A DNA stretch of 64,000 bases from Parcubacteria group bacterium Gr01-1014_31 (GTDB lineage Bacteria; Patescibacteriota; Patescibacteriia; Buchananbacterales; GWA2-38-13). Under the pieces are notes generated by a model, which ran no database searches, had not been told where the DNA came from, and saw only the letters and a program-made list of their open reading frames with translations. The stretch spans positions 11,660 to 75,659 of the forward strand of contig VMFR01000003.1 of NCBI GenBank assembly GCA_007376135.1, given 5' to 3'. Below, one piece after another: positions 1 to 55,660 of this stretch. Both the position numbers and the translations under genes were made by a program. Positions within the stretch are counted from its first letter, which is position 1, and each line of letters opens with the position of its first letter.

Positions 1-2154
1 TACAAGGAGCAGAGAACGAAATTCTATTATTTCAAGTACGGTCCGGTGATCATTGGCACGGCGCGGCCGGAAACGAAATTCCAGGACAAGACCATCATGG
101 TGCATCCTGACGATGCGCGCTACCGGCACCTGCACGGCAACGAGATGGAGATCGAGTGGATCGAGGGCAAGGTCAAAGCCAACATCATCGCCGATACGGT
201 GGCGGACAAGGATTTCGGTACCGGCGCCATGACCATCACCCCGGCGCACAGTTTCGAGGATTTCGAACTGGCGAAAAAATACCAGCTGCCGGTCGTGTCC
301 ATCATCGACGAAGACGGGAAATTGACGCCGGCGGCGGGCACGTTCGCCGGCAGAGACGCGCGGGCAAGCCGGGAGGAGATCGTTGCCAAGCTGCAGGCCA
401 AGGGGCTCGTGGACCACATCGACGAGGATTACGTGCACAATCTTTCGGTCTGCTATCGTTGCGGCACGCCGGTTGAACCCTTGCCGTCAAAGCAATGGTT
501 CGTGGATGTAAGTGCTAAGTGCAAAGTGCTCAGTGCTAAGCTTAAATATCCCAAAAAGGAAGCGTCATTGAAGGAATTAGCGGCGTGGGTGGTGAAATCC
601 GGCCAGATCGAAATAATTCCCGACCGTTTCACCAAAACGTACTTCCATTGGATGGATAATTTGCGGGATTGGTGCATCTCGCGGCAGATTTGGTTTGGCC
701 ACCGGATACCCGTTTACTATCGTAAACGGAAATTTCCCAATTCTCAATTTTCAATTTCCAATGAAGGTGTCGCTTCGCGACAAAATCTACAAGCCACAAG
801 CCACAAGCCACAAGCTGATAATGAAGAGGTCTACGTTGGGGTGAAGCCGCCGGTGGGGGACGGGTGGAAGCAGGACCCCGATACCTTGGATACGTGGTTT
901 TCGTCGGGGCTGTGGACGTTCTCGACCCTGGGCTGGCCGCAAAAGACCAAGGATCTAAAATCGTTCCACCCCACCGATCTGATGGAGACCGGTTACGACC
1001 TGCTGTTTTTTTGGGTCGCGCGGATGATCTTAATGAGCACGTATTTGGTCGGCGAACTGCCATTCCGCCAGGTCTACTTTCACGGCATGGTGCGCGATAA
1101 GCTCGGCCGCAAGATGTCCAAGTCGCGGCCGGAGACCGCGATCGACCCGGTAGATATGATCGAAAAGTACGGCGCTGATGCCATGCGGCTCAGCCTGGTC
1201 ATCGGTACAACCGCGGGAAACGACACGCAGCTGTGGGAGGAAAAGATCGCATCGTACCGCAACTTCGTCAATAAACTGTGGAATATCGCGCGGTTCGTCT
1301 CAATGACGGCCGGAGAACTGAAGCTGGTAAAGACCGCGCCGACCCCAAAGACCCTGGCTGACCGGTGGATTTTGGCGGAGCTTGATGACATCATCAGGCG
1401 CGCAACGACAGGGTTGGAGCGCTATGAGTTTTCGGCCGTGGGTGAAGCCGTGTATGAGTTTACCTGGAGCAAATTCGCGGATTGGTATTTGGAAATTGCC
1501 AAGATCGAGGGGGGCAAAGAAAAAATGCTTTCCTATATATTGCAGCAAGTGCTCAAGTTGTGGCATCCGTTCACCCCGTTCGTCACCGAACATTTGTGGG
1601 AACGATACGGCGCGGGCCACCGCCGAGGCGGGGCAAAAAAACTATTGATGATCCAAGCCTGGCCGAAAGCCGGCCGCGCCAAGGCGGTAACGGATTTCGT
1701 TCAGGTGCAATCCGTGGTCACCGCCATTCGCAACCTTCGCTCAACCGCCAAAGTCGAACCGGCAAAGCGCGTGGCGGTCCAAATCGCCGCCGGCAAACAC
1801 GCCAAGCTGCTCAAGGCGCAGTCCGCCGTGATAGCGGCGTTGGCCCGATGCAGCGAGTTGACCGTCGAGGCCAAAGTTCCTAAGCCATCGCAAGCGGCTT
1901 CGGCCGTGGTTTCTGGCGTGACCATCTATGTGCCGCTCGCCGGGTTACTGGATGTCGGCAAGGAGCAAGAGCGTTTGCGGCGCGAACTGGACGAAGCCGA
2001 ACGGTATGCCAAAATGTTGGAACAGAAACTTGCAAATGACGCATTCACTGCACGCGCCCCGCAGGCAGTCGTTGCGGCGGAACGCGAGAAACTGGCCGTC
2101 CAGCAGAGCAAGGTCGCCAAACTGCGCGAGCAGTTGAACGCGCTCGCGGCCTAA
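1..2154 (+). CDS. valS: Valyl-tRNA synthetase, partial (N-terminus upstream of window)
   Basis: Class I aaRS motifs including KMSKS; conserved 'DTWFSSGLWTFSTLGWP' and 'DWCISRQIWFGHRIPVYY' blocks; C-terminal coiled-coil. ORF runs to the window edge. Contains low-GC in-frame insertions (see findings). Confidence 0.9.
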   Translation, partial: YKEQRTKFYYFKYGPVIIGTARPETKFQDKTIMVHPDDARYRHLHGNEMEIEWIEGKVKANIIADTVADKDFGTGAMTITPAHSFEDFELAKKYQLPVVSIIDEDGKLTPAAGTFAGRDARASREEIVAKLQAKGLVDHIDEDYVHNLSVCYRCGTPVEPLPSKQWFVDVSAKCKVLSAKLKYPKKEASLKELAAWVVKSGQIEIIPDRFTKTYFHWMDNLRDWCISRQIWFGHRIPVYYRKRKFPNSQFSISNEGVASRQNLQATSHKPQADNEEVYVGVKPPVGDGWKQDPDTLDTWFSSGLWTFSTLGWPQKTKDLKSFHPTDLMETGYDLLFFWVARMILMSTYLVGELPFRQVYFHGMVRDKLGRKMSKSRPETAIDPVDMIEKYGADAMRLSLVIGTTAGNDTQLWEEKIASYRNFVNKLWNIARFVSMTAGELKLVKTAPTPKTLADRWILAELDDIIRRATTGLERYEFSAVGEAVYEFTWSKFADWYLEIAKIEGGKEKMLSYILQQVLKLWHPFTPFVTEHLWERYGAGHRRGGAKKLLMIQAWPKAGRAKAVTDFVQVQSVVTAIRNLRSTAKVEPAKRVAVQIAAGKHAKLLKAQSAVIAALARCSELTVEAKVPKPSQAASAVVSGVTIYVPLAGLLDVGKEQERLRRELDEAERYAKMLEQKLANDAFTARAPQAVVAAEREKLAVQQSKVAKLREQLNALAA

Positions 2155-2167
2155 TAATATATTTTGT

Positions 2168-3355
2168 ATGCCAAAAATTTCCACCGACCCGAAGCTGATC
2201 GCCGAAGTGTTAGAGCGCGGCGTACAGAACATCTATCCTAGCAAAGAGGCGTTCGGACAGGCGCTCGCGTCCGGCCGGCGGCTCACCATCTACAACGGCA
2301 TCGACCCGACGGGGCAGTTGCACCTCGGGCATGGCGTGGTGCTCTTGAAGTTGCGGCAGCTGCAGCAACTGGGCCACCGCGTCATCGTGTTATTTGGCGG
2401 GTTCACGGCGCAGATCGGCGACCCCACCGATAAACTGGCAACGAGGCAGCCCTTGAGCGCAGCGCAGATCAAGGCGAACGCCAAAAACTACAAAAAACTC
2501 ATCGGAAAGATCTTGGACCCGAAAGCCACGGTGTGGAAAGATAACGCGACCTGGTGGGACAAGATCACCGCCGCAAAATTCCTGGAATTGGCATCGGAGC
2601 TGTCGGCCGCCCGCATCTGGGAACGCGACATGTTCCAGGAGCGCCTCAAGCAGGGCAAAGAGGTGCACCTGCACGAATTGCTCTACCCTTTGCTGCAGGG
2701 GTACGATTCGGTGGCCATGGACGTGGACGCCGAGGTCGGCGGCAACGACCAGACCGTCAACATGCTGGTGGGGCGCGAGATGCTCAAACGCCGTGGCAAG
2801 GAAAAGTTTGTCCTGACGTGCAAGCTGCTGGTGGACCCGACGGGCAAGAAGATGGGGAAGACCGAGGGCAACTTTGTCGCCATGGACGACAGCCCCCAGC
2901 AAACCTACGGCAAGGTGATGTCGTGGCCGGACTCGGTCGTACCGTTGGCATTCGAACTGGCAACCGTCGTGCCCTTGCCGGAAGTGGTGCAGGTCAGGAA
3001 TGACCTGGCCGCCGGGAAGAACCCAAAGATTTTAAAAATGCTTTTGAGCTACAAGATCACCGAGCTGTACCACGGCACGCCAGCGGCGATTTCCGCCGAA
3101 GAGCATTTCAAACAGGTCTTTGAGCGGGGCGAAAAGCCAACCGACATTCCCGAGGTGCGGACGGTCGAACGCGCGCTGCTCGAGGTGCTGGTCGCCTGCA
3201 AGCTCGCCGCTTCCCGGACCGACGCGCGTCGGTTGATTCAGCAGGGCGGCGTCAAGGTCAACGGGGTGACGGTCAAGGATGAACGGTTTGAGGTTCCCGA
3301 TGCCGCGGTCATTCAGAAAGGCAAACGGTTTTTCGTCGGTATCAAACGCGCGTGA
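2168..3355 (+). CDS. tyrS: Tyrosyl-tRNA synthetase
   Basis: HLGH (HIGH) and KMGKT (KMSKS) motifs, C-terminal S4-like domain; starts 14 nt after the valS stop. Confidence 0.9.
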   Translation: MPKISTDPKLIAEVLERGVQNIYPSKEAFGQALASGRRLTIYNGIDPTGQLHLGHGVVLLKLRQLQQLGHRVIVLFGGFTAQIGDPTDKLATRQPLSAAQIKANAKNYKKLIGKILDPKATVWKDNATWWDKITAAKFLELASELSAARIWERDMFQERLKQGKEVHLHELLYPLLQGYDSVAMDVDAEVGGNDQTVNMLVGREMLKRRGKEKFVLTCKLLVDPTGKKMGKTEGNFVAMDDSPQQTYGKVMSWPDSVVPLAFELATVVPLPEVVQVRNDLAAGKNPKILKMLLSYKITELYHGTPAAISAEEHFKQVFERGEKPTDIPEVRTVERALLEVLVACKLAASRTDARRLIQQGGVKVNGVTVKDERFEVPDAAVIQKGKRFFVGIKRA

Positions 3356-3374
3356 AGAGCGGCGCAGTACTGCC

Positions 3375-4823
3375 ATGGCGTTGACGGCCCGGCGGGCAAT
3401 GGTGGGCGGTCGCGGGGCGGCCGCAGTGGTGTTGGCAGGCTCTCTGCTGCTTTCGCTGCTTACGTACTGGCAGCACGACGGTTCCTCGGATGCCGGGACG
3501 ACCTTGACGACGGCCTGGCAGATGAGCCAGGGCAAAGTGCTGTACCGCGATATCGTGGATTTTTACCCGCCCGTGGCGTTCACGCTGCTGGCGGGCGTTT
3601 TTAAAATTGTTGGCCCCAGCTATCTGGCCGCCAAGGCGCTGTTCCTGGGGTTGCTGATCATTTGCGGACTCGCGGTGCAGCGCGCCACGCGAGACTTTTT
3701 ACCCCCCGCATGGCGGTACGCCGTGCTGCCACTGTGGCTGGTATTTTTCGCGTTCTACACGCTCATCAACCACAACCCCCTCAGTTTGTGGCTTGCGGCG
3801 CTGGCCTGGGTGAGCTGGAGCACGGCGCAGCGCTCATCCTCCCGCGGATTTTCGTTCTTGGCCGGGCTGTTGGCGGGAGCGGCCAGCGGCACATTGCAGA
3901 CGAAAGGATTGGCGGTGCTGGTGGCAGCCGCACTCGTCGTTGCCATCCATCAGTGTAAGGTTTGGCGGCTCTTGTTATGGTTGGGTGGAGGTTTTGTTAC
4001 CGTGCTGTTCCTGTTATTTACCATCTGGCCGCCGGCACTTTTGTGGGAGTTGCTGGTCGCCGTTCCCGCCAATTCCTACGCTGTACCGCCGGGCCGTTTG
4101 GAGTATGGCTTGTTGGTGTTGGCGGCCGCGGTGCAGTTGGTTGCCGGCTGGCAGCTCTTGCGGCAGCGCGCTCCGATCGTGGTCTGGGGATGGTGGTGGC
4201 TGGGAGCGGCCCTGCTTGCCAGCACCGCGGTGCGCACCGACGCGCATCACGTCGTGATGAATTCGTTCCCGTTGCTGCTGGTTTCCCTGTGGATCGCGTC
4301 GCAGCGGCGGTGGGAGAGAACGCACGGCCTATCCCAAGTGGTGGATCGGTTGTTAACAACCTTGGTCGCGGCGTATCCGTTGACGCTCATGTTGCTCGTC
4401 GTCGTGGCGCTGCCGTCCGGATTCCCGACCGCCCAGGATCGGACGTTTTGGGAGTGGCTCGCGCTGCGAAACCGGGGGATCGAGCAAATCGTGTTCGCGG
4501 TACAGACCCGCGTACCGCCCGGCAAGCCCATCTACGCCGGGCCGTTCTTGGCCAATGCGTACTTTGAAACGCAACGCGAAAATCCCACCCGTTTCAACAA
4601 TCTCATCACCGGCCTGTACCCGTCCGCGTATTTTCAGGAGGCACGCGCCAGCCTGGAGGAAGATACGCCGGCGGTGGTGTTGCTTAATTACCCGCTGGTC
4701 GCCAAATACCAGCACCAGATGAACAATCCTGTCGATGCGTTCTTCTGGTCGCGCTATCGCGTGACGGCGCAATTCGGCGACACGGTGCTGTTGGAATTGC
4801 AGCAGCCGTCAGGCAGCCCGTAG
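3375..4823 (+). CDS. Polytopic GT-C fold glycosyltransferase paralog 1 (PMT_2/GT39-83-like; DE motif replaced by DA)
   Basis: Many predicted TM helices. 'FYPPVAF..FG.S...AK' block aligns to the PMT_2 signature of paralog 6. C-terminal soluble domain with the 'QRENPTRFN' motif. Start chosen at the first ATG after the tyrS stop; it is uncertain. Confidence 0.6.
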   Translation: MALTARRAMVGGRGAAAVVLAGSLLLSLLTYWQHDGSSDAGTTLTTAWQMSQGKVLYRDIVDFYPPVAFTLLAGVFKIVGPSYLAAKALFLGLLIICGLAVQRATRDFLPPAWRYAVLPLWLVFFAFYTLINHNPLSLWLAALAWVSWSTAQRSSSRGFSFLAGLLAGAASGTLQTKGLAVLVAAALVVAIHQCKVWRLLLWLGGGFVTVLFLLFTIWPPALLWELLVAVPANSYAVPPGRLEYGLLVLAAAVQLVAGWQLLRQRAPIVVWGWWWLGAALLASTAVRTDAHHVVMNSFPLLLVSLWIASQRRWERTHGLSQVVDRLLTTLVAAYPLTLMLLVVVALPSGFPTAQDRTFWEWLALRNRGIEQIVFAVQTRVPPGKPIYAGPFLANAYFETQRENPTRFNNLITGLYPSAYFQEARASLEEDTPAVVLLNYPLVAKYQHQMNNPVDAFFWSRYRVTAQFGDTVLLELQQPSGSP

Positions 4824-4827
4824 AGCT

Positions 4828-6252
4828 ATGCCGCACACCATTCTGCGCCAGCGGTGGGTCGTCTGGGGACTCTTGGCAGCCGGGTTTGCCACAGTGGCAG
4901 GCTACCACGCCGTACTTCCCATTGATGTTGATGAAACCTGGGTGCTGACGGTCGGCTGGCAGATCACCCAGGGCGTGGACCCGCTCCGCGATCTGTATGA
5001 ATTTCATACGCCCGGCGCATTCTACCTGGCCGCCGCGATCATCAAAATGTTCGGCGCCAGCGTTTGGCCGTTGCGGCTCGTGGTGACGCTGTTGACCGCG
5101 GCAACGGCCTGGCCGCTGTGGCGCCTGGCGCAACTATTGGGATTGCGGGGTTGGCAGCCGCCGGCGGTGGTGGCGACGTGGATTTTGCTGCTCACTATGT
5201 TCCCGTGGATCAACCCCAACCACCTGGCCCAGCTGGGTGGTATCTGGGCGGCGTGGGCGCTGGTCTTTGCCTGGCAGAAGCGGCGGCTGCGCTGGTTTGT
5301 TCTGGCGGGCGCGATTGCCGGGCTTGCCGTGTGGCTGTTGCAGACCCGCGGAGGCGCCCTGGTGTTGGCGGGCGTGGTAATTGCCCTCACGGCCCGTCGG
5401 CTTTGGCCGTTGGTGGCATACCTTGCCGGGGTCGGGGTGGTTTGGCTGCCATTCCTGTTGTGGCCGCCCGCGCTGCTCTGGCATAGTCTGGTCACGCTGC
5501 CGACGACCCAGTACCTGCCGTCCCAGTTCGTCGGCGTGCAGCTGGTGGTCATTACGGTCGGATTCCTCACTGTTCTCGCGCTGCTGGCATTGGCCGTGCA
5601 TGCCGCGCCGTCCGGATTTTGGCCGCTCTGGGCAGTCGCGCTTGTTCTGGCGGCAAGCATCTGGTCGCGCGCCGAAATTGCCTACTGGTCAACGATCGCC
5701 TGGCCGCTGTCGGTGCTGTTTTTTTCGCTGCTGTCGTGCCCCTGGCCCCGGCTGTCTGGCCGTCCACGGCAGACGGTGCGTGCCGTCATGTGGTACGGCG
5801 GCGCGCTGCTCGCGGCGCAGGTGTTTGGTTGGGCGGCGATCAACGGCGCGTCGCGCGTCGCGATGGCCATTTCCGACCGGCGCGCAGGGCGCGGCGACCT
5901 GTGGCAGGGGATCGGGGCAGCGGTAACGGCGCGGACGTTGCCGGGGGAGGAGATTTTTGCCCTGCCGTATCTGCCGGGGGCATATTTTTTCAGCCAGCGG
6001 CCGAACGCCACGCCGTACAATACGCTGCTGTCCAATTTTCACCCGCCCGAAATCCTCGCGGACGCGATTTCGCGGCTGGAGCGGGTCAAGCCGAAAGTGG
6101 TGGTGCGGGCACGCGACAGTTTCGCCGTTCGGCGAGGTTTTCATCAGGACGGCACCGCGCTGGACGCGTACCTGGATGACCATTACCGCGTGGCGCAAGA
6201 CTCGGTGGCCGGGTATGTGGTGGAAATTTTGGAGCGTCGGCCTGGGTTATGA
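4828..6252 (+). CDS. GT-C fold glycosyltransferase paralog 2 (DE motif intact)
   Basis: 'DVDETWVLTVGWQ' plus 'EFHTPGAFY..FGASVWPLRLVVTLLTAAT' align with the PMT_2 motif region. C-terminal domain 'SQRPNATPYN ... DAYLDDHYRV'. Starts 5 nt after the paralog 1 stop. Confidence 0.65.
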   Translation: MPHTILRQRWVVWGLLAAGFATVAGYHAVLPIDVDETWVLTVGWQITQGVDPLRDLYEFHTPGAFYLAAAIIKMFGASVWPLRLVVTLLTAATAWPLWRLAQLLGLRGWQPPAVVATWILLLTMFPWINPNHLAQLGGIWAAWALVFAWQKRRLRWFVLAGAIAGLAVWLLQTRGGALVLAGVVIALTARRLWPLVAYLAGVGVVWLPFLLWPPALLWHSLVTLPTTQYLPSQFVGVQLVVITVGFLTVLALLALAVHAAPSGFWPLWAVALVLAASIWSRAEIAYWSTIAWPLSVLFFSLLSCPWPRLSGRPRQTVRAVMWYGGALLAAQVFGWAAINGASRVAMAISDRRAGRGDLWQGIGAAVTARTLPGEEIFALPYLPGAYFFSQRPNATPYNTLLSNFHPPEILADAISRLERVKPKVVVRARDSFAVRRGFHQDGTALDAYLDDHYRVAQDSVAGYVVEILERRPGL

Positions 6253-7682
6253 ACGAGGAATTGCCGACATCTCGCTGGGGGCTGGGCGCCCGTGCCACGG
6301 TGGTCGCGGTGCTGGCAGCGGTTGCCTTCATCCGGTGGTACGTCGGAATCGATCCGGATGCGGGATTGACGATGACGGCCGCCTGGCAGGTGAGCCAGGG
6401 ATTGGTGCCGTACCGGGATTTTTTCGAATTCCATCCCCCCGGCGCATTTTATGCGCTGGCCGGCGTTTTTCAGATCTTTGGCTCCACCTACGTCGTCGCC
6501 AAACTGTTCTCGATGCTCGTTCTGGCCCTTGGCGCGGTGGGAGTGGATCGCTGCGCGCGGCGGCTGTTGCTGCGTCCGTGGCATCGCGTTGCCGCTTTGG
6601 CGGTGTGGGGGCTGCTGGCGCTGCAGTTTCCACTGGTGAGCTATAGTACATACGCGCACGTCGGTAGCATCTGGGTCGCGTGGCTTTTGGTGCGGCTCCA
6701 TCAGCGCAGCGCTCAAGGGTGGGAGGCGCTCGCCGGGTTTGCCGTCCTCGGAGCGAGCGCGGCGGGGGTGGGGTGGCTTTTGCAGACGCGCGGTGCGGCA
6801 TTGTTCCTGGTCGGGCTGGGTGTTGCCGCGGCGTCGCGCCGCTGGCAGCTGGTCGCAGCGTACCTGGGAGGATCGGGGGTGGCGCTGCTGCCCGGCCTCG
6901 CGCTTCCGCTGCGGGAATTTTGGCAGCAAACGGTCGTCTATCCCGCTGCCCACTACCCGGCCATCAACACCGACCAGCCATTGTGGCTGGTGCTCTGGGG
7001 TGGCGTCATCGTGACGCTGGGCATAGTCGCATACTGGGCGCGATCCTCGTGGCGCGGATTTTGGCCGTTGTGGTGGACGGCCCTCGCGCTCTTGGTCAGC
7101 ATCTGGCCGCACGCGAACGGGGTGTACCTCTCGATGGTGCTGTGGCCCTTGGCGCTGTTGTTCACCGCCGCGGTGCCGCCGCCGTCGGCCATGGCGTGGC
7201 GACGGCTCTGGCAGGGGGTAGCTGCGGCATCCGGAGCTTTTGCCGGCGCGCTGGCCTTGATGACCGTCGGCGTTTTTTTTACCCTGTTCCCCGGCGCGCG
7301 CGCCGCCGACCCCTGGGGCGCGCGGGCGCCCTTCTGGGAGGATCTGGCCGTTGAGGTGCGGATGCGGACGCAGCAGAACGAACCCATCTTTGCCACGCCC
7401 ACGCTACCCAATCTTTATTTTTTCGCGCAGCGTCCGAATGCCACGCGGTATAATTCCCTGTTCAGCGGTCAGTACGACGCTCCGTATTTCTTGCAAGCGG
7501 TCGTCGATCTGGAGCAGCGCCGTCCTCGATACGTCGTGCGCGAGCTGGACAGCTTGGCGGTGCAACTGGGTTACCACCGTGACGGCACCCAGGTGGATGT
7601 GTATCTGGATGAGCACTACCGCGTGGCCGCCGAGCTGACGAAGTTTCTGCCGCGGCGGTTGCAGCTCTTGGAGCGGCGATAG
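6249..7682 (+). CDS. GT-C fold glycosyltransferase paralog 3 (DA variant)
   Basis: ATGA start/stop overlap with paralog 2. 'DPDAGLTMTAAWQVSQG...EFHPPGAFY'. C-terminal 'AQRPNATRYN ... DVYLDEHYRV'. Confidence 0.65.
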   Translation: MNEELPTSRWGLGARATVVAVLAAVAFIRWYVGIDPDAGLTMTAAWQVSQGLVPYRDFFEFHPPGAFYALAGVFQIFGSTYVVAKLFSMLVLALGAVGVDRCARRLLLRPWHRVAALAVWGLLALQFPLVSYSTYAHVGSIWVAWLLVRLHQRSAQGWEALAGFAVLGASAAGVGWLLQTRGAALFLVGLGVAAASRRWQLVAAYLGGSGVALLPGLALPLREFWQQTVVYPAAHYPAINTDQPLWLVLWGGVIVTLGIVAYWARSSWRGFWPLWWTALALLVSIWPHANGVYLSMVLWPLALLFTAAVPPPSAMAWRRLWQGVAAASGAFAGALALMTVGVFFTLFPGARAADPWGARAPFWEDLAVEVRMRTQQNEPIFATPTLPNLYFFAQRPNATRYNSLFSGQYDAPYFLQAVVDLEQRRPRYVVRELDSLAVQLGYHRDGTQVDVYLDEHYRVAAELTKFLPRRLQLLERR

Positions 7683-7689
7683 CATCCGT

Positions 7690-9114
7690 ATGACGTGGTA
7701 CCCCCTCCCTCGTTCCCGCTGGACGCCTCCCGCGATTGCGGGGCTTGTGTTGGCGCTGCTGGTGGTGCGCTGGTATCCGGACCCCGCCAGCGACGAAACA
7801 TTGACGCTGACCATCGCCTGGCAGGTCAGCCAGGGGCTTGGGCTCTACCGCGATGTCTTTGAATTCCATCCGCCCGGTACGTTCTATTTCTTTGGCGCGC
7901 TGTTCCGGGTGTTCGGCCCGTCGTATCTGGCGGCGAAGATCGCGATCGTACTCCTGACCGCGGCAACCGGTTTTGCCCTCGATGTGCTAGTTCGCCGCTT
8001 CACCTCCCGCGGACTACCGCGGGTCACCGTGCTGGCGGGGTGGCTGCTGTTGGTCTGGCAATTTCCGGCGATCGGCTACCATTCCTTGGCGCACCTGGCC
8101 AGCATTTGGGTTGCGCTCTTTTTGGTTCTGGCGTCCGTTGAGCGGCGTACCGGCTGGGCTTTGGCCTGCGGTCTCGCGACGGCCGCTGCGGGCTGGTATA
8201 TGCAACCCTACGGCGTGGTCCTGGCGGCGGTGGGCGTTGGCAGCATGCTCGCGACGCGGCAGCTGCGGCTGGCGTTCGCTTACGTTGCCGCGCTCGCGAT
8301 CGCGCTGCTGCCGTTGCTGGCCTGGCCTTTGCCGCTGCTGTGGCAGCATCTGGTGCGATTCCCGCTGACGTACTACGCGCCCGCGAACCTTTCCCAAGGC
8401 AGTCCGGCAGGGTTGTTCGTCCTGGTCGCGGTGGTTCTCATGGTCGGCGCTGCGGCTGTCTTCAGTCGGCGGGTGCCATCCGGGTTTTGGCCGTTATGGT
8501 TCATGTCGCTGGTCCTGCCGCTCACCGTGTGGCCGCACTCGCAGGTCGGCTACCTGGCGAGTGTTGCCTGGCCGTTGCTTTTGCTGCTCGTGGTAACACC
8601 GCCGGGTGGGGGAGCGATGCGGGAGCAGATCTCGGCCATCGTCGGGCAAAGCCTTCGGTTTGTGGCCGTGGTCGGCGGCATCGCAGCGGCAGTCGTTTCG
8701 GTCGGATTTTTTTCCGTGCGTTGGCCGCTCCATGACGAGTTCGGTCTGCGCGTGCCGTTCTGGGACGACCTTGGAACTGCGGTGCAGGCCCGCACGAGGA
8801 CGAATGAACCGATCTTTGCCGTGCCGTACTTGCCGGCGATATATTTTTTTGCCCAGCGGCCCAATGCCACCCGGCACAACTCGCTGCAGACCGCGTTCCA
8901 TCCGCCGTACGTCTTGGATGAGATCATCACCGATCTGGAGCGCACCAAGCCGCGGGTGGTCATCCGCGAGTATGCCAGCTGGCTCGCGCGATTGGGGCAG
9001 TACGACGAGGGCAACCGCGTTGACGCCTACCTGGATATGCACTATCGGTTCAGTGAGGAGCTGACGCAGTTTGCCCCGCGGCGGATCCAGCTGTGGGAAC
9101 GACGCGTTCCGTAG
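7690..9114 (+). CDS. GT-C fold glycosyltransferase paralog 4 (DE intact)
   Basis: 'ASDETLTLTIAWQVSQG...EFHPPGTFYFF'. C-terminal 'AQRPNATRHN ... DAYLDMHYRF'. Confidence 0.65.
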   Translation: MTWYPLPRSRWTPPAIAGLVLALLVVRWYPDPASDETLTLTIAWQVSQGLGLYRDVFEFHPPGTFYFFGALFRVFGPSYLAAKIAIVLLTAATGFALDVLVRRFTSRGLPRVTVLAGWLLLVWQFPAIGYHSLAHLASIWVALFLVLASVERRTGWALACGLATAAAGWYMQPYGVVLAAVGVGSMLATRQLRLAFAYVAALAIALLPLLAWPLPLLWQHLVRFPLTYYAPANLSQGSPAGLFVLVAVVLMVGAAAVFSRRVPSGFWPLWFMSLVLPLTVWPHSQVGYLASVAWPLLLLLVVTPPGGGAMREQISAIVGQSLRFVAVVGGIAAAVVSVGFFSVRWPLHDEFGLRVPFWDDLGTAVQARTRTNEPIFAVPYLPAIYFFAQRPNATRHNSLQTAFHPPYVLDEIITDLERTKPRVVIREYASWLARLGQYDEGNRVDAYLDMHYRFSEELTQFAPRRIQLWERRVP

Positions 9115-9118
9115 TCGT

Positions 9119-9234
9119 CTATGCCCCGTAGGACAACGGAATGGCGGGGAAAATAGATATTAGACGGGGGAGAAGCTATTATGTACGCCATCACATGAGC
9201 ATTACACATTTGACCGTTGTCCTGCGGGGTAGGC
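9119..9234 (+). repeat. Start-codon-enclosing inverted-repeat element, copy A (between GT-C paralogs 4 and 5; degenerate distal ATG)
   Basis: Inverted repeats ctatgccccgtaggacaacgg and ccgttgtcctgcggggtaggc (ATG changed to AGG); begins 5 nt after the paralog 4 stop. Confidence 0.7.
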
Positions 9235-10628
9235 TGCAAGACCTTCCCCGTATCGTTGCCTCGCGGTGGTGGCCGTTCGTCTACTGGCCGGCATTGTTGC
9301 TCCTCGCGATTTTTTTGAAATGGGGCCACCTGGTCAACCAGGATGAGGGGTTAACGCTGGCCGGTGCGTGGCAGGTTAGCCTTGGGTTGCAGCCATATCG
9401 TGATTTTTACGATTTCATCACGCCGGGCTCTCATTATCTTTTGGCGGGCGTCTTTCGCATGTTCGGTTCGACGTACGTCGTGGCGAAGGTCTTTTCATTG
9501 TTCCTCCTTCTGCTCTCCCTATACGGCGTGCGACGGATCACGGTGCGGTTCGCCTCCGGACCATGGTCGTGGTGGCCGTCGCTGCTGTGGCTCTTGCTGT
9601 CCGATCACTATGTGCTGATCAATCACAACACGTACGCGCTGGTGGCGGCGGTCTGGGCGATCGAGCGCGCGTTGGCGGCAGCCGGCAAGACCGCGGCGCG
9701 ATGGCCGTCCTGGCTGGTCGCGGGGTTGCTGGCCGGCGCGACCGTGATGCTGCACCAGGCGCGGGGAGCAGCCGTGGTCGCGGCCGTGCTGTGGCTCGCG
9801 CTGACCTTCGGGGTTGTCCCGGCTCTTGCCGTCATCGGGGGAGTGGCACTTGCGCTCCTGCCGCTGTTGGCATGGCCGTTGCCGCTCCTGCTGCAATCAT
9901 TGGTTGCCTTTCCTTTCGTCCAATATCTCCCGTTCAACCGGACCGGGATGACGCTGTTGGGCGCTTTGGTCGGCGTATATCTCGGGGTGGTGTTGCTTTC
10001 CCCATCACGCTGGCGAGACCGCCGCTGGGTATTTCTCTGGGGCAGCGGGGTTTTGCTGTTGGCGAGTAACTTCAGCCAAGCCGACCGTTTTCACCTGCTG
10101 CCGGCGATGTTTCCCATCGGCGCGCTGATCGCAACGGTCGCCATCCAGCGGCGTTCGCGCTGGCCGGCGTTGATGGCCGCTTCCGGCACGGCGGTATTGG
10201 CGGTAATCTCCATCGGCTTTACGGCACACCGCATTGCCAGCGTCGGCGTCAGGCCGTTCCTTCAGCTGCGCGACCCCCAGCTGGAGCAGCTGGTTTCCCG
10301 CATACAGCAAACCGTCGCGCCCCAGCAGCCGATCTTCGCCGCTCCGTTCCTGCCCAATCTTTATTTTGAAACTCAGCGCCGTAATCCGACGCGGTTCAAC
10401 GTGCTGATCTATCGGCACCATCCTTCGGCGTTCTTTGCGGCAGCGCGTGCCAGCCTGGAAGCCGACCCACCGCCCGTCATTCTCCTGAACTACTACACGA
10501 CGCCCGAAGGGTTTGCGACATTCCTGCTGGGCAACCCGGTCACTGACTATATCCGCCAGTACTACCGATACGCGGAAACCGTGAATAACATCCAGATCTA
10601 CCGCCGCACGGTCCCTCCGACACTATGA
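9141..10628 (+). CDS. GT-C fold glycosyltransferase paralog 5 (DE intact; start uncertain because it lies inside the repeat element)
   Basis: 'NQDEGLTLAGAWQVSLG...DFITPGSHY'. C-terminal 'TQRRNPTRFN'. The first in-frame ATGs (9141, 9195) lie inside the 9119-9234 inverted-repeat element, whose distal repeat has lost the ATG. Confidence 0.6.
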   Translation: MAGKIDIRRGRSYYVRHHMSITHLTVVLRGRLQDLPRIVASRWWPFVYWPALLLLAIFLKWGHLVNQDEGLTLAGAWQVSLGLQPYRDFYDFITPGSHYLLAGVFRMFGSTYVVAKVFSLFLLLLSLYGVRRITVRFASGPWSWWPSLLWLLLSDHYVLINHNTYALVAAVWAIERALAAAGKTAARWPSWLVAGLLAGATVMLHQARGAAVVAAVLWLALTFGVVPALAVIGGVALALLPLLAWPLPLLLQSLVAFPFVQYLPFNRTGMTLLGALVGVYLGVVLLSPSRWRDRRWVFLWGSGVLLLASNFSQADRFHLLPAMFPIGALIATVAIQRRSRWPALMAASGTAVLAVISIGFTAHRIASVGVRPFLQLRDPQLEQLVSRIQQTVAPQQPIFAAPFLPNLYFETQRRNPTRFNVLIYRHHPSAFFAAARASLEADPPPVILLNYYTTPEGFATFLLGNPVTDYIRQYYRYAETVNNIQIYRRTVPPTL

Positions 10629-12073
10629 AATTTCATTGGGCCAAAATGTTTTTGCGGTCACCGTGGATTTGGGCAGTGTTTGGGTTGACGGTTTTCGGCA
10701 TGGCGCTGCGATGGCTGGGATTGGGACGCGAGTCGCTGTGGATGGACGAGCTGCAGACTTTGCGCGCCGCTCTTCTGCCGTGGGGGGAGCTGGTCATGGA
10801 ACGCCTGTCGGCCGGCCACGCGCCGCTATATTTCCTCTTGATGAAGCCGTGGATAGCTGTCTTTGGTGCGTCGGAAACGGCGCTGCGGTTGCCGTCGTTG
10901 CTGTTGGGAACAGCGACCATCCCGCTGACCTATCTGTTGGGCCGGCAGGCAGTCTCCCGCACGGTCGGTCTGTTCGCGGCATGCGGGATAACAGTCTCGG
11001 CCATCAACATCGAGTACGCGCAGGAGGCACGGCCATATACGCTGCTCACGCTGTTGGTGTTGCTCTCCGCCCTGGGGGCGGTGAAGTTGCATTCCTCGTT
11101 GGGTCGGCAAGGCTGGGGGTTGGCGTGCGTTGGGTTGATCGCCGGCATCTACACGCATTCCTATTTTCTCTTCTTTGCATTGGTCATCGTGGGCTGGCTG
11201 CTGTGGTCGAGTCGGGGGACGGCGGCCGTGGGACGGGTCTGGTCGCTCGCGCTCACGGTCGGCATGGCCGCGCTGCCGTGGGTCGCTGCCGTCACTTGGC
11301 AGCAGCTGCGCCCGCAGCCGGGCAATCCGGTCTTCTTCCTTTCCCAGCAGCAGTGGACCCTCTGGGACGCCGCCGTCAATTTCTTGGTCCGGACGCGGGC
11401 GGCCACCTACTGGCCCGAACCGTCGTATCTGGCGGTCTTTCCAACCGCTCTGCTGTTGGGTGTGGCGATCCTTCCGGTCGTACGGTGGGTTCGCCGGGGC
11501 GTTACGGATCAGAAGACCCCGATCGTCCTGCTCTACGGTTTGGTAGTCATCCCGGTGCTTTTGCCGTGGCTCTGGTCGCAGGCAGGTACGAATATCTTCG
11601 GCATCCATTATCTGCTGCCGGTGACGCCGGCATTGTATGCGGTGGTTGCCGTCGGCGCGGTCAGCACATGGGAAATGCTGCCGTGGCGCCAAAGGCCGAT
11701 CGTTCTGGCGATCGCCGTTGCGGCGTTCATCCCGCTACAGTCCGGGAGTTTGGCGGTCGCGTACCTCGTGCACCATAAGCCGCCGTGGCGCGAGGTGGAC
11801 GGTTATCTCCGGCGTAACGTCGGTGGGGAAGACGCGGTCGTGCTCATCGGCCCGGCCGCCGAGGCAACTCCGGTACTGGCGCACTACGCGCGCGGAGCCT
11901 ATGCGGTGCAGCCTGCGCCGACCGCCGATGTCCGCGAGGCCGCGCGGCTCTGGATGATCGGCTATGGACCCCAGGCGATGGCGCGCTCCCTTCAGTCCCT
12001 GGCGACGGTTTTGCAACCGTTCGCAACCGTGCGGATAGATCGCATCGGCATCATCGGGCTGGAGCGCCGTTGA
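10625..12073 (+). CDS. Glycosyltransferase family 39/83-like (PMT_2, ArnT/PMT-type) membrane protein
   Basis: Canonical PMT_2 N-terminal signature 'SLWMDELQTLRAAL...HAPLYFLLMKPWIAVFGASETALRLPSLLLGTATIPLTYLLGRQ'. ATGA overlap with paralog 5. Lacks the C-terminal domain shared by paralogs 1-5. Confidence 0.75.
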   Translation: MKFHWAKMFLRSPWIWAVFGLTVFGMALRWLGLGRESLWMDELQTLRAALLPWGELVMERLSAGHAPLYFLLMKPWIAVFGASETALRLPSLLLGTATIPLTYLLGRQAVSRTVGLFAACGITVSAINIEYAQEARPYTLLTLLVLLSALGAVKLHSSLGRQGWGLACVGLIAGIYTHSYFLFFALVIVGWLLWSSRGTAAVGRVWSLALTVGMAALPWVAAVTWQQLRPQPGNPVFFLSQQQWTLWDAAVNFLVRTRAATYWPEPSYLAVFPTALLLGVAILPVVRWVRRGVTDQKTPIVLLYGLVVIPVLLPWLWSQAGTNIFGIHYLLPVTPALYAVVAVGAVSTWEMLPWRQRPIVLAIAVAAFIPLQSGSLAVAYLVHHKPPWREVDGYLRRNVGGEDAVVLIGPAAEATPVLAHYARGAYAVQPAPTADVREAARLWMIGYGPQAMARSLQSLATVLQPFATVRIDRIGIIGLERR

Positions 12074-18949: not shown

Positions 18950-20170
18950 ATGCCGATATCCGTTCGCCGCCGATTCCCCATATTCACGCGCCGCATCCAC
19001 GGCAATCCGCTGGCGTACCTGGATTCTGCCGCCACGACCCAGAAGCCCCTCGCCGTCCTTTCCGCCATGGACGATTTCTACCGACGCCATTGCGCCAATC
19101 CGCGCCGCGGACTGCATCAGCTGGGCGTGGAAGCGACCGCCATGGTGGAAGACGTCCGGCAGGAGGTCGCCGCGTTCATCGGCGGCCGTCCGGAGGAAGT
19201 GATATTCACTTCCGGTACGACCGCAGGCATTAATTTGGTTGCCTACGGCTGGGCGCCGCTGGCGCTGCGGGCAGGAGATACGGTGCTCGTCTCGTTGTTG
19301 GAACATCACTCCAATTTCGTGCCGTGGCAGCAGCTGGCTACGTTGCACCGCTGGCGGGTGCAATTCATCCCTGTCGGCGCAGGAGGGAAACTGGATACTC
19401 GTTGGCTGCGCACGCACCTGCATCGCCGCGTAAAACTTGTCTGTATCACGCACACGTCCAACGCGCTTGGCACGCAGCCGCCGCTGCCAGCGGTGGTTTC
19501 CGCCGCGCATCGGGTTGGCGCACGGGTGCTGGTGGATGCAGCGCAGGCGGTGGCCCACCAGTCTATCGATGTCCAGCGTCTAGATTGTGACTTTCTGGCA
19601 TTCTCCGGGCATAAGATGTATGGTCCGATGGGCGTGGGCGTGCTGTGGGGGAGGGCCGAACTGTTGCGGCAATCCCGTCCCTTCCACTACGGGGGCGAGA
19701 TGATCCGCCAAGTGCGCCAGCGGGGGACCACGTTTGCCGACTCCCCGGCGAAGTTCGAAGCCGGCACGCAGAATGCCGGCGGCATCGTCGGCCTCGGCGC
19801 GGCGATCAGGTGGATCAAGCAGCTCGGTTTTCGCGCCATCGCACGCCACGAACGGCAGCTGATGGTGTACGCGCTGCGCCGGCTGTCAGCGTTGCCCGGG
19901 GTCGTCCGGTATGGGCCGGCCGGCGTTGTCGGCCGCGGTCCGGTCATCAGTTTCAACCTTCGCGGGGTGCACGCGCACGACGTTGCCCAGATCCTGGACG
20001 CTCGGGGCATCGCGGTACGGGCGGGCCACCACTGCGCGATGCCGCTGATGGAACAGTTGAAGGTACCGTCCACCGTGCGGGTGAGTTTCGGAGCGTACAA
20101 TATAAAGGAAGACGTAGATCGACTTATCAAGGGGTTAAAGGAGGTACAGAGGATATTTAGTGGTAAGTAG
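18950..20170 (+). CDS. sufS: Cysteine desulfurase SufS (class V aminotransferase)
   Basis: PLP-lysine region 'FSGHKMYGPMGVGVLWGR'; catalytic Cys in 'RAGHHCAMPL'. Confidence 0.9.
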   Translation: MPISVRRRFPIFTRRIHGNPLAYLDSAATTQKPLAVLSAMDDFYRRHCANPRRGLHQLGVEATAMVEDVRQEVAAFIGGRPEEVIFTSGTTAGINLVAYGWAPLALRAGDTVLVSLLEHHSNFVPWQQLATLHRWRVQFIPVGAGGKLDTRWLRTHLHRRVKLVCITHTSNALGTQPPLPAVVSAAHRVGARVLVDAAQAVAHQSIDVQRLDCDFLAFSGHKMYGPMGVGVLWGRAELLRQSRPFHYGGEMIRQVRQRGTTFADSPAKFEAGTQNAGGIVGLGAAIRWIKQLGFRAIARHERQLMVYALRRLSALPGVVRYGPAGVVGRGPVISFNLRGVHAHDVAQILDARGIAVRAGHHCAMPLMEQLKVPSTVRVSFGAYNIKEDVDRLIKGLKEVQRIFSGK

Positions 20171-20239
20171 TAAGTGCTAAGTGTAATTCATTGATTGGCC
20201 ATGACTTAGTACTTACTGCTGTGTACTTAGTACTTCGCT

Positions 20240-25067: not shown

Positions 25068-27421
<2,354 letters not shown>

Positions 27422-49335: not shown

Positions 49336-49583
49336 AGATGTGGGTAGATAAAGGATAGTAAAAACGTGAGTAGGGTAGCATGCCTTCTCACGCGGGGTCA
49401 AACGGGGGCACCTTTTTGCCACCTTTCTAGGAAAGGTGGCGCCAAAGTCGCGAGCCGTCTCGAAATTTAGAAAAAATCAGGTTCACTCGGCGTAAAATCG
49501 CTATGCGCACTCGGCCTCAGCACGCGATTTCCCGCCGCCTCGCTCACCTCGATTTTTTACCTAAATTTCTCCAATGCTCGCAT

Positions 49584-50087: not shown

Positions 50088-50093
50088 ATTGCA

Positions 50094-50861: not shown

Positions 50862-50882
50862 CGTTGTACTAAGTACTATGTA

Positions 50883-51248
50883 CTAAGTGCTACGTGCGTT
50901 GGCTCGCATCCAACCGTTGAGTAACCTACCAGCGGTTTCGCAAAGTTGCAAGGCCTCATCGTGGTCCTGGGAAGTGAGGTACTTCAAATCCTTAGCGATA
51001 AGGAAGGCACATTTAGTTTCTTCAAGTGAGGCTTCGGCTATGTTGTAGAAATGCAGTGCTTCCGCCGTTGATCGGCGCTTGAATCCTTCCGTGATATTGA
51101 GGGCAATTGAAACCGCAGCTCGGCGGAGCTGCGATGTCAATCCGTACGTTTCCGATTTTGGGAACGCGGCAGTCAGCCGGTAGGTGGTGAGGACTACAGT
51201 ATAGGCAGCTTGCCAGGCTTTGATATCCCGAAAGGTGGTTGCTGCCAT
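50883..51248 (-). CDS. Four-helix-bundle protein (TIGR02436; 23S rRNA intervening-sequence-type protein)
   Basis: 'AYxxxLxTY ... SQLRRAAVSIALNITEG' family signature. Gene is tightly flanked by AGTACTTAGT-type repeats. Confidence 0.75.
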   Translation of the reverse strand: MAATTFRDIKAWQAAYTVVLTTYRLTAAFPKSETYGLTSQLRRAAVSIALNITEGFKRRSTAEALHFYNIAEASLEETKCAFLIAKDLKYLTSQDHDEALQLCETAGRLLNGWMRANARST

Positions 51249-51295
51249 ACCTCCACAGTACTTAGTCCTTAGGACTTAGTACTTAACACTTCCAA

Positions 51296-55593: not shown

Positions 55594-55626
55594 CCGCAAT
55601 CCGCGCGGCACCTACCGCACCTTCGT

Positions 55627-55660
55627 CCACCTGTTCCTCGTCTGGAGCAGGTGGTTTTTT
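55627..55660 (+). terminator. Intrinsic terminator
   Basis: ccacctgttcc-tcgtctg-gagcaggtgg followed by tttttt. Confidence 0.8.

What the first reader, a model, noticed from the sequence alone, without database searches (positions are those of the whole stretch)
20163..20236. Dispersed short palindromic repeat family (AGTRCTNAGTRC / GTACTTAGTAC) at gene boundaries, inside valS, and flanking the four-helix-bundle gene
Imperfect palindromic 11-13-mers built on AGTACT/AGTGCT half-sites recur in clusters at 508-542 (inside the valS coding sequence), 20163-20236 (sufS stop to sufU start, arranged as an inverted pair), 25969-26046 (atpG stop to atpD start), 50862-50895 (between the 4HB-protein stop and the methyltransferase start) and 51257-51290 (between the beta-propeller stop and the 4HB start). 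Several begin exactly at a stop codon (TAA/TAG followed by GTACT). The 4HB gene is bracketed on both sides. These could be REP/MITE-like elements, RNase processing or terminator-like hairpins between cistrons, or recognition sites for a mobile cassette carrying the 4HB gene. The AT-richness contrasts with the surrounding high-GC DNA.
Basis: seen in the sequence. Interest (0 to 1): 0.6.

Follow-up and report, generated by a model that had tools for sequence, protein, structure and literature searches.

The report
Heptamer-repeat hairpins, IVS-like, between genes
The "palindromic" repeats are short runs of a 7-base unit placed as inverted pairs that fold into long hairpins between genes of one operon. 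One pair encloses a small four-helix-bundle gene, the design known from ribosomal-RNA intervening sequences. The same design surrounds this gene family across very different bacteria.

Summary

They are not palindromic 11-13-mers. They are tandem heptamer arrays of unit AGTRCTN.
- At sufS|sufU and atpG|atpD, two arrays in opposite orientation form long hairpins.
- Around the four-helix-bundle (4HB) gene (PF05635, "23S rRNA intervening-sequence protein"), the two arrays pair across the whole ORF.
- In valS, a single array sits in frame in a variable loop.

The design is general. In 72 unrelated PF05635 loci, 49 carry heptamer arrays at a gene end, against 0 of 78 control gene ends. Arms are complementary in 36 of 73 loci. 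The unit differs from locus to locus, and other arrays on the same contig share it. Four isolate plasmids show the same arrangement.

The sufS|sufU junction holds such a hairpin in five related lineages, each with a different unit. One of them is about 97-100% identical to the window in most of the flanking DNA.

The only precedent I found is the Coxiella 23S IVS, which has heptamers before S23p and a stem cut by RNase III.

Best reading: these are IVS-like elements, with or without the ORF, outside rRNA, and probably RNase III substrates. Cleavage and mobility are inferred, not shown.

The parts
509..543 (+). Single-orientation heptamer array (TAAGTGC x about 5) inside valS, in frame. It encodes VSAKCKVLSAKL in a variable-length loop of ValRS.
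   Evidence: TRF period 7, 4.6 copies. Translation. In the alignment with 12 homologs the loop after QWFVDV varies in length. The only unit whose TAA would be in frame (523-525) reads AAA (read). There is no inverted partner, and the fold is not better than shuffles (z -1.35).
20159..20186 (+). 5' arm of the sufS|sufU hairpin: units AGTGGTA AGTAGTA AGTGCTA AGTGTAA. It contains the sufS stop TAG at 20168-20170.
   Evidence: sufS is PF00266.
20187..20203 (+). Loop of the sufS|sufU hairpin (about 17 nt).
   Evidence: Fold.
20204..20235 (+). 3' arm of the sufS|sufU hairpin. These are the same units in reverse-complement orientation. The arm ends 4 nt before the sufU ATG at 20240.
   Evidence: 17 consecutive pairs plus an outer extension, dG -29.4 kcal/mol, z -3.61, 0 of 200 shuffles as good. 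TRF period 7.
25970..26046 (+). atpG|atpD hairpin: degenerate units AGTACTC CGTGCTC GGTGCAC CGTTCTC AGTACCC, a short loop, then the reverse-complement units. It starts on the last base of the atpG stop and ends 4 nt before the atpD ATG at 26051.
   Evidence: dG -35.8 kcal/mol, z -4.82, 0 of 200 shuffles as good. Inverted repeat of 24 nt, 79% complementary. TRF period 14. Pattern hits on both strands.
51257..51290 (-). 5' arm of the 4HB element (minus strand: AAGTGTT AAGTACT AAGTCCT AAGGACT AAGTACT). It lies between the beta-propeller stop (51296-51298) and the SD and ATG of the 4HB gene.
50883..51248 (-). 4HB gene (121 aa), in PF05635 and TIGR02436. It sits in the 'loop' of the element.
   Evidence: PF05635 E 3.8e-34, bAvd E 8.9e-9. 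TIGR02436 E 5e-32. Closest solved structure is XCC0516, PDB 2GSC, E 1.7e-18.
50866..50897 (-). 3' arm of the 4HB element. It covers the last codons and the stop of the 4HB ORF and most of the 21-nt spacer before the methyltransferase ATG at 50861.
   Evidence: It pairs with 51257-51282 (26 nt, 85%; extended 33 nt, 76%), the second-longest inverted repeat in the window. The MFE and centroid folds of the 439-nt element close it with this stem. The same holds in the ortholog L003.

Best explanation
These repeats are IVS-like hairpin elements located outside rRNA. Each consists of two short arrays (about 4 units) of a 7-base repeat in opposite orientation. In the polycistronic transcript the arrays pair into a 20-30 bp stem.

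One copy carries a PF05635 four-helix-bundle ORF in its loop. That is the architecture of the ORF-bearing 23S rRNA intervening sequences. The sufS|sufU and atpG|atpD copies are ORF-less. The valS copy is a lone array tolerated in a surface loop.

Most likely the stems are double-stranded-RNA processing sites for RNase III. Cleavage would separate the flanking cistrons and release the 4HB message, so an insertion between genes, or in rRNA, would be harmless.

At the DNA level the elements behave as fast-turning-over, semi-selfish cassettes that sit exactly at stop/start junctions.

Shown here: the period-7 anatomy, the hairpins, the general association with PF05635, lineage-specific units, and turnover at a fixed junction.

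Inferred: RNase III cleavage (by analogy with Coxiella), transcription as one operon, and any mobility mechanism. Why the period is 7 remains unexplained.
For: 1. Anatomy in the window.

2. Generality across PF05635 loci (80 unrelated metagenomic loci):
- Period 7 is the best self-match period in 58 of 73 downstream flanks and 41 of 73 upstream flanks, against about 4 of 76 in controls.
- Arms are complementary at 17 or more of 21 positions in 36 of 73 loci, against 0 of 76 random placements and 3 of 73 swapped partners.
- A stringent heptamer tract lies at a gene end in 49 of 72 loci, against 0 of 78 sufS gene ends. Other periods score near 0, except period 8 (8 loci).

3. Unit sharing and density: there are 38 distinct units among 43 loci. 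Twelve of 13 extra arrays on the same contigs match the unit of their own 4HB flanks within 1 mismatch, where about 10% is expected. There are 89 tracts in 214 kb of 4HB contigs against 2 in 477 kb of unselected loci. An ORF-less inverted hairpin of the same unit lies in L151.

4. Cultured isolates show the same arrangement: Nostoc punctiforme, Anabaena variabilis, Picosynechococcus PCC 7003 (between cmr2 and cmr3) and Azospirillum lipoferum.

5. Orthologous locus: a species with 70% 4HB identity keeps the gene, both arrays and the closing stem.

6. The sufS|sufU junction in relatives: five lineages each have an inverted heptamer hairpin with a different unit (AGTRCTA, TGACMAT, AATTCCA, CGAATTT, AAAGTYA). 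All fold better than shuffles (z -2.9 to -6.2). A more distant relative has no spacer. L184 is about 97-100% identical to the window in most of the flanking DNA but unalignable in the spacer.

7. Precedent: the Coxiella burnetii 23S IVS has 2-3 tandem GACAGAT heptamers before the S23p ATG, a 28-bp terminal stem, and RNase III cleavage in the stem in vitro (PMC4990558).

8. Not terminators and not a known RNA family.
Against: - No transcript or cleavage data exist for this organism. RNase III cleavage has been shown only for rRNA IVSs.
- The valS copy forms no hairpin (z -1.35), so not every array works as a stem.
- valS also holds arrays of two unrelated units (CAATTTT and ACAAGCC). This points to a general heptamer-generating process rather than a single element family.
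- About a third of PF05635 loci show no stringent array.
- The 4HB cassette shows no presence/absence polymorphism in the relatives I could reach.
- In one contig (L130), two 4HB paralogs have different units.
- Nothing explains the 7-base period.
Confidence: 0.6

Rival explanations
1. REP/MITE-like DNA elements. The hairpins would be non-autonomous mobile DNA moved in trans by a transposase encoded elsewhere (for example a RAYT/IS200-type enzyme acting on DNA hairpins). The 4HB gene would be passenger cargo.
For: The copies are dispersed and sit at gene junctions. The sufS|sufU hairpin was replaced wholesale between genomes about 97-100% identical in most of the flanking DNA. Further arrays of the same unit lie on the same contigs.
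Against: Copies share only the 7-base unit, not a conserved full-length sequence or defined ends. I saw no target-site duplication. No transposase gene was seen among the window ORFs scanned, but not all ORFs were scanned. The five lineages have five different units at one and the same junction, which is odd for independent transposition. The 4HB locus is stable across 70% protein divergence.
Confidence: 0.15
2. Host regulatory hairpins that arise in place. Slipped-strand expansion of a heptamer on both sides of a spacer would create intercistronic stem-loops, selected because they stabilise or uncouple neighbouring cistrons as E. coli REP hairpins do. The link with 4HB genes would be secondary.
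For: The hairpin is kept at the sufS|sufU junction in five lineages without sequence conservation. The elements sit within operons whose subunits are needed in different amounts (atpG versus atpD). Copy number of the heptamers varies between Coxiella strains.
Against: This does not explain why PF05635 genes in unrelated phyla are the genes that sit inside such hairpins. It does not explain an abrupt replacement of the unit at 95% flank identity. A relative lacks any spacer at this junction, so the hairpin is dispensable.
Confidence: 0.15
3. Phase-variable simple-sequence repeats (contingency loci). Gain or loss of 7-base units would switch expression of the neighbouring genes.
For: Heptamer SSRs drive phase variation of the hmw genes in Haemophilus, and RNase III is involved there (PMC12721329, listed). 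Copy number varies in the Coxiella IVS.
Against: The arrays are short (about 4 units) and imperfect. There is no copy-number difference between the window and identical contigs from two other samples, nor against the 94% identical contig at the 4HB locus (0 gaps). The genes concerned are housekeeping genes (valS, suf, atp).
Confidence: 0.03
4. Intrinsic terminators or attenuators between cistrons.
For: Strong hairpins lie directly after stop codons.
Against: No T-run follows any of them. None is picked up by the terminator scan. The stems are AT-rich. The hairpins end 4 nt before the next start codon inside conserved operons.
Confidence: 0.02

Closest known systems
ORF-bearing 23S rRNA intervening sequences (Coxiella burnetii IVS with S23p; Leptospira IVS)
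   Same: A PF05635 ORF is enclosed by terminal inverted repeats that form a stem of about 28 bp. Tandem heptamers make up the 5' arm just before the start codon. The stem is an RNase III substrate in Coxiella (PMC4990558). ORF-less IVSs also exist in rRNA, which parallels the ORF-less hairpins here (the ORF-less IVSs are from my own knowledge).
   Different: Here the elements lie between protein-coding genes of operons, and one array lies inside a coding sequence, not in helix 9, 25 or 45 of 23S rRNA. The window contains no rRNA. The host is a high-GC CPR/Patescibacteria-like organism.
Cyanobacterial STRR heptamer repeats and the TAACTGA direct repeats of Beggiatoaceae, cyanobacteria and Bacteroidetes (MacGregor 2015, PMC4679880)
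   Same: These are tandem 7-base units, 2-6 copies, mostly intergenic, often ending just before a start codon. Some overlap ORF ends or lie inside ORFs. Units contain stop codons in all three frames. Function is unknown.
   Different: Those reports describe direct repeats, with only one inverted case in the Beggiatoa genome, and make no link to 4HB genes. Here the arrays come as inverted pairs and are tied to PF05635. The STRR unit sequences I recall from memory were not checked.
REP/REPIN elements of enterobacteria and pseudomonads
   Same: Short dispersed hairpin-forming sequences lie in intercistronic spacers. Intercistronic REP hairpins are known to stabilise upstream mRNA (established knowledge).
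   Different: REPs are conserved 20-40-mers with hundreds of near-identical copies and an associated RAYT transposase. Here only the 7-base unit is shared, and it differs between close relatives.
Avd, the accessory protein of diversity-generating retroelements
   Same: The 4HB protein hits the bAvd and DGR-Avd models weakly (E about 1e-9, below both curated cut-offs).
   Different: There is no reverse transcriptase, template repeat or variable repeat next to the gene. The scores are below both family thresholds.

Membership tests
23S rRNA intervening sequence (IVS) elements | Inserted in a 23S rRNA helix (9, 25 or 45) | tested here: not met
   No rRNA is found in the window (Rfam finds only two tRNAs). 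The elements lie between sufS/sufU, atpG/atpD and beta-propeller/4HB/methyltransferase, and inside valS.
23S rRNA intervening sequence (IVS) elements | Terminal inverted repeats that close the element with a long stem | tested here: met
   Arms of 26 nt (85%) to 33 nt (76%) lie around the 4HB ORF. The closing stem appears in the MFE and centroid folds. The two ORF-less copies have stems of about 17 consecutive pairs and about 30 pairs with mismatches.
23S rRNA intervening sequence (IVS) elements | ORF of the PF05635 (S23p) family inside the element (ORF-bearing subtype) | tested here: met
   PF05635 E 3.8e-34 and TIGR02436 E 5e-32 for 50883-51248. The other three loci have no ORF.
23S rRNA intervening sequence (IVS) elements | Excision from the precursor RNA by RNase III | not testable with these tools
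   Known for Coxiella in vitro. No transcript data are available for this organism.
Tandem heptamer repeat families (STRR / TAACTGA type) | Head-to-tail repeats of a 7-base unit, a few copies, mainly intergenic | tested here: met
   TRF period 7 at five arrays. Four of five clusters are intergenic.
Tandem heptamer repeat families (STRR / TAACTGA type) | One of the described unit sequences in a described host group (cyanobacteria, Beggiatoaceae, Bacteroidetes) | tested here: not met
   The unit AGTRCTN is not TAACTGA. By best ValRS hits the host is CPR-like (Brenner-/Taylor-/Uhrbacteria, 52-59% identity).
REP/REPIN | Conserved full-length palindromic sequence shared by all copies | tested here: not met
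   The copies share only the heptamer unit. Loops and arm lengths differ. The unit itself differs at the same junction in a close relative.
REP/REPIN | Associated RAYT (Y1 transposase) gene in the genome | not tested
   Only 20 of the window's ORFs were scanned. The rest of the genome is not available.
MITE | Terminal inverted repeats plus a target-site duplication | tested here: inconclusive
   Inverted arms are present. No duplication is recognisable at the borders, but the array ends are ill-defined.
Intrinsic terminator | GC-rich stem followed by a U-tract | tested here: not met
   None of the hairpins is listed by the scan. The stems are AT-rich and are followed by CGCTATGG or CAACATATG.
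Phase-variable SSR (contingency locus) | Copy-number differences between close strains or within a population | tested here: not met
   Contigs from two other samples are identical. There are 0 gaps against the 94% identical contig across both 4HB arrays. The sufS|sufU difference is a replacement, not a change in copy number.

The most novel reading that the evidence does not exclude
PF05635 four-helix-bundle genes and lineage-specific heptamer arrays may together form one widespread, self-propagating system. This would be a class of element without a recognisable transposase.

In that reading the Avd-like 4HB protein recognises, or helps to generate and homogenise, arrays of 'its' heptamer. 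Its products would be seen as rRNA intervening sequences, as cyanobacterial STRR-type repeats, as ORF-less intercistronic hairpins, and as in-frame insertions in proteins.

The rapid replacement of the unit at a fixed junction would be the footprint of that activity.
Probability: 0.2. Interest if true: 0.85.

Novelty: new variant of a known kind. Interest (0 to 1): 0.62.

Why it matters
Three puzzles have stood since about 1990: where rRNA intervening sequences come from, what the S23p/4HB proteins do, and what makes and maintains tandem heptamer repeats in bacteria.

The data here tie them together. The heptamer-built inverted stem is not a quirk of the Coxiella IVS. It is the normal setting of PF05635 genes in many phyla, it occurs outside rRNA, and ORF-less versions of the same unit are scattered in the same genomes.

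This makes the question testable in cultivable cyanobacteria through three experiments: end mapping with and without RNase III, binding of the 4HB protein to its own heptamer, and comparison of close strains.

It also has practical consequences:
- The arrays supply stop codons and species-specific C-terminal tails (sufS in L175 and L185) and in-frame insertions (valS). Gene callers and alignments will be affected.
- The arrays are candidates for contig breaks and for being mistaken for other repeat types. Neither effect was examined here.

Tried and rejected
It returned only distant homologs (54% identity or less) from unrelated taxa, so it gave no close relatives and no taxonomy. Those loci served only as an unselected control set.
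- An exact look-up of the 4HB protein found nothing. The window's own contig was found through SufU (ENA ERZ27284378 k139_643801).
- I tried to reach the atpG|atpD junction in relatives through the identical c-subunit. That failed because all other contigs were too short. Conservation of that hairpin is therefore untested.
- Literature searches linking PF05635 with HEPN, or with heptamers in general, gave nothing beyond the Coxiella paper. The supplement of MacGregor 2015 does not mention S23 or IVS genes.
- The shared 9-mer ATTGATTGG (hairpin loop at 20193-20201, and next to the 4HB 5' arm) was considered as a common motif and dropped. One 9-mer match in 64 kb is near chance expectation.
- A 'three-frame stop' function of the unit was considered. 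Stop-containing units are only modestly enriched (36 of 73 against 32% expected), and three of the five sufS|sufU units have no stop.
- The integron attC analogy was rejected. In most loci the upstream arm is purine-rich and the downstream arm pyrimidine-rich, so each arm cannot fold on itself.
- Terminator, promoter and Rfam explanations were rejected.
Full report
**1. What is in the window**

They are tandem arrays of a 7-base unit, AGTRCTN, not palindromic 11-13-mers.
- Tandem Repeats Finder reports period 7 at 509-540, 20159-20183, 20204-20235, 50866-50892 and 51257-51285, and period 14 at 25970-26008.
- A self-match scan finds period-7 tracts but none for periods 4, 5, 8, 10 and 11.
- AGTACT is its own reverse complement, so two adjacent units look like a palindrome.

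The family is far beyond chance.
- The exact two-unit pattern gives 4 hits against 0.05 expected.
- A three-unit pattern with up to 3 mismatches gives 27 hits against 0.33 expected.
- All 27 lie in the five clusters and nowhere else in 64 kb.
- Four of the five clusters are in intercistronic spacers, although about 89% of the window is ORF.

**2. Anatomy of each locus**

Gene identities were confirmed with Pfam: sufS (PF00266), sufU (NifU_N), atpG, atpD, valS, a beta-propeller protein, a methyltransferase, and a 121-aa protein of PF05635 ('23S rRNA-intervening sequence protein'; TIGR02436 'four helix bundle protein').

- sufS|sufU: four units in forward orientation (20159-20186), a loop of about 17 nt, then the units in reverse-complement orientation (20204-20235). 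The fold has 17 consecutive pairs plus an outer extension (dG -29.4, z -3.6). The sufS stop TAG lies inside the first array, and the second array ends 4 nt before the sufU ATG.
- atpG|atpD: the same design with more degenerate units (dG -35.8, z -4.8). It starts on the last base of the atpG stop and ends 4 nt before the atpD ATG.
- The 4HB gene: the array upstream (51257-51290) and the array downstream (50866-50897, which contains the 4HB stop) are reverse complements of each other (26 nt at 85%, or 33 nt at 76%). This is the second-longest inverted repeat in the window. In the fold of the 439-nt element they form a terminal stem that encloses the whole ORF.
- valS: a single array without a partner and without a significant fold (z -1.35).

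None of the hairpins is followed by a T-run or is listed by the terminator scan. Rfam has nothing there.

**3. The valS copy**

The array encodes VSAKCKVLSAKL. It lies in a loop after QWFVDV whose length varies among homologs. A perfect TAAGTGC array would put TAA in frame at its third unit, and exactly that unit reads AAA (523-525, read).

valS also has two arrays of other units, CAATTTT x3.6 (738-762) and ACAAGCC x3.9 (789-815). They lie on either side of a small GC hairpin, all within an insertion of about 30 residues that most homologs lack. So heptamer arrays can become coding sequence in this genome, and more than one unit exists.

**4. The same design surrounds PF05635 genes in general**

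I collected 80 unrelated PF05635 loci from metagenomes and printed their flanks. Most show an array of some heptamer upstream and its reverse complement downstream. Examples are AGGAATC/GATTCCT, AGGAGTT/AACTCCT, CTAGGGA/TCCCTAG and CCACCTA/TAGGTGG.

Quantified:
- Period 7 is the best period in 58 of 73 downstream flanks and 41 of 73 upstream flanks, against about 4 of 76 in control positions.
- Arms are complementary at 17 or more of 21 positions in 36 of 73 loci, against 0 of 76 controls and 3 of 73 when partners are swapped.
- With a stringent tract definition, 49 of 72 loci have a heptamer array at a gene end and 21 have one at both ends. Period 8 occurs in 8 loci and other periods in 0-3. 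The control, 78 sufS gene ends, has none.
- The unit differs from locus to locus: 38 distinct units in 43 loci.
- Further arrays on the same contigs carry the unit of their own 4HB flanks (12 of 13 within one mismatch, about 10% expected).
- Heptamer tracts are about a hundred times denser in these contigs than in unselected loci (89 in 214 kb against 2 in 477 kb). About 20 of them lie away from any 4HB gene. One is an ORF-less inverted pair (L151 1092-1157).
- Upstream arms tend to be purine-rich and SD-like, downstream arms pyrimidine-rich. The downstream array starts a median of 3 nt after the stop and often overlaps it.

Complete plasmids of cultured organisms show the same arrangement: Nostoc punctiforme, Anabaena variabilis, Picosynechococcus PCC 7003 (there between cmr2 and cmr3) and Azospirillum lipoferum. 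This is therefore not a metagenome artefact.

**5. Relatives of the window's organism**

The window is identical to ENA contig ERZ27284378 k139_643801. By ValRS it belongs to the CPR/Patescibacteria (best named hits Brenner-, Taylor- and Uhrbacteria, 52-59%), with an unusually high G+C of about 62%.

At the 4HB locus:
- A species with 70% 4HB identity has the gene at the same place, with arrays of the same unit family on both sides and the same closing stem.
- A contig 94% identical to the window keeps everything without a gap.
- So this cassette is old and stable here.

The sufS|sufU junction behaves quite differently. Five lineages each carry an inverted heptamer hairpin there, built from five different units:

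| Lineage | Unit | sufU identity to window |
|---|---|---|
| window | AGTRCTA | - |
| L184 | TGACMAT | 99% |
| L175 | AATTCCA | 71% |
| L177 | CGAATTT | 67% |
| L185 | AAAGTYA | 70% |

- All four relatives' spacers fold better than shuffles (z -2.9 to -6.2).
- A more distant relative (55%) has sufS TGA-c-ATG sufU with no spacer at all.
- L184 is 97-100% identical to the window over most of sufS and 100% identical over the first 100 nt of sufU (97-100% beyond). The last 120 nt or so of sufS drop to 79% and then 57%, and the spacer cannot be aligned.
- In L175 and L185 the sufS reading frame runs into the array and gains a lineage-specific tail.

Structure and period are kept, the sequence is not, and the change can be abrupt.

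**6. What is known**

In the library I could search, one paper connects these things. In the Coxiella burnetii 23S IVS, which encodes the PF05635 protein S23p:
- the 5' part consists of two or three tandem GACAGAT heptamers before the ATG, with copy number differing between strains;
- RNase III cuts in the middle of that stem in vitro, at the start of the first repeat (PMC4990558).

Other relevant reports:
- Tandem heptamers as such are known from cyanobacteria (STRR) and from Beggiatoaceae, cyanobacteria and Bacteroidetes (TAACTGA; PMC4679880). No link to 4HB genes is made there.
- PF05635 genes were noticed inside cas operons (PMC3936711) and in CPR rRNA insertions (bioRxiv 10.1101/2024.02.27.582315). 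Both call the function unknown and neither mentions flanking repeats.
- I found no statement of the general rule. Subscription literature is not covered, so I cannot exclude one.

**7. Interpretation**

The window holds four loci of one kind of element: an inverted pair of heptamer arrays that forms a long stem in the transcript, with or without a PF05635 ORF in the loop. This is the architecture of ORF-bearing rRNA intervening sequences, found here between protein-coding cistrons of a CPR bacterium.

The most likely function of the stem is as an RNase III site. Cutting would release the 4HB message and leave the neighbouring cistrons intact. That would explain why such insertions are tolerated in operons (suf, atp, cmr) and in rRNA. 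This step is inferred from Coxiella and is not shown here.

The hairpin also behaves as a fast-evolving cassette. It is dispensable in one relative, present with a different unit in every lineage, and replaced between near-identical genomes together with the adjacent end of sufS.

Whether that reflects recombination with diverged donors, re-insertion, or an active homogenising process is open. So is the reason for the 7-base period.

Strict membership in the IVS family fails on location (not in rRNA). Membership in REP or MITE families and in terminators fails on defining features, or for MITE is inconclusive (see the membership table).

**8. Verdict**

The element type is a new variant of known kinds (IVS, heptamer repeats). 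The general coupling between PF05635 genes and lineage-specific inverted heptamer arrays, and the turnover at a fixed junction, are the parts a specialist would find surprising and could test directly.

Noticed in passing
window 732-818 (inside valS): Two further heptamer arrays with unrelated units (CAATTTT x3.6 at 738-762, ACAAGCC x3.9 at 789-815, the latter 100% perfect) flank a small GC hairpin (GTCGC-TTC-GCGAC, 769-781). All lie in frame within an insertion of about 30 residues that most ValRS homologs lack.
   Followed up: partly
L175 205-352 and L185 318-398 (sufS|sufU junctions of relatives): The sufS reading frame runs into the heptamer array and gains a lineage-specific C-terminal tail (for example ...KIFLPRARNSKSQAPNSKQLPNIKFQIPNRF*). 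The arrays create new protein sequence and supply the stop codon.
   Followed up: partly
window 49409-50106: A segment of about 700 nt with an ORF of 167 aa (49584-50087, minus strand, no Pfam hit) is present in the window. It is absent from the 94% identical contig L001, where the methyltransferase is followed directly by the sequence matching 49408-48964. This is an indel polymorphism next to the 4HB locus.
   Followed up: no
window 55612-55974: A 363-nt non-coding gap contains the longest inverted repeat of the window (55750-55781 / 55854-55885, 32 nt, 81% complementary, 72 nt apart; GGTTGTCTAACGGGGTTGACC occurs on both arms). There is no Rfam match at gathering threshold.
   Followed up: no
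window 47599-48139: Dense GC-rich tandem repeats of 6, 9 and 12 bases (CGGCGT, GCCGTTGCC and others) lie inside a long ORF (47314-49422 minus, 702 aa, no Pfam hit). This is probably a repetitive low-complexity protein.
   Followed up: no
window 3279-12073: Seven consecutive ORFs of 474-514 aa lie on the same strand. Two hit the PMT_2 glycosyltransferase family weakly and the rest hit nothing. It looks like a tandem paralog array of membrane proteins after tyrS.
   Followed up: no
L181 (Picosynechococcus sp. PCC 7003 plasmid, NZ_CP016476.1 about 126543-126899): A 4HB gene with inverted heptamer arrays sits between cas10/cmr2 and cmr3 of a type III-B operon. This is the kind of placement reported for Pleurocapsa in PMC3936711. 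It suggests the 'cas-associated' 4HB genes are insertions of this element rather than cas components.
   Followed up: partly
L093-L172 (80 PF05635 loci): In most loci the upstream arm is purine-rich and often SD-like (AGGAG-type units: 10 of 32 against 5% expected), and the downstream arm is the pyrimidine-rich complement. About 11% of loci use an 8-base period instead of 7. Two loci carry two 4HB genes. In L145 the paralogs are 75% identical and share the unit. In L130 they are 42% identical over the aligned part and have different units.
   Followed up: partly
whole window: G+C is about 62% in an organism whose ValRS is closest to Parcubacteria-type CPR lineages (52-59% identity), which is unusually high for that group. 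No close relative turned up in the species-representative genome collection with the SufS query.
   Followed up: no
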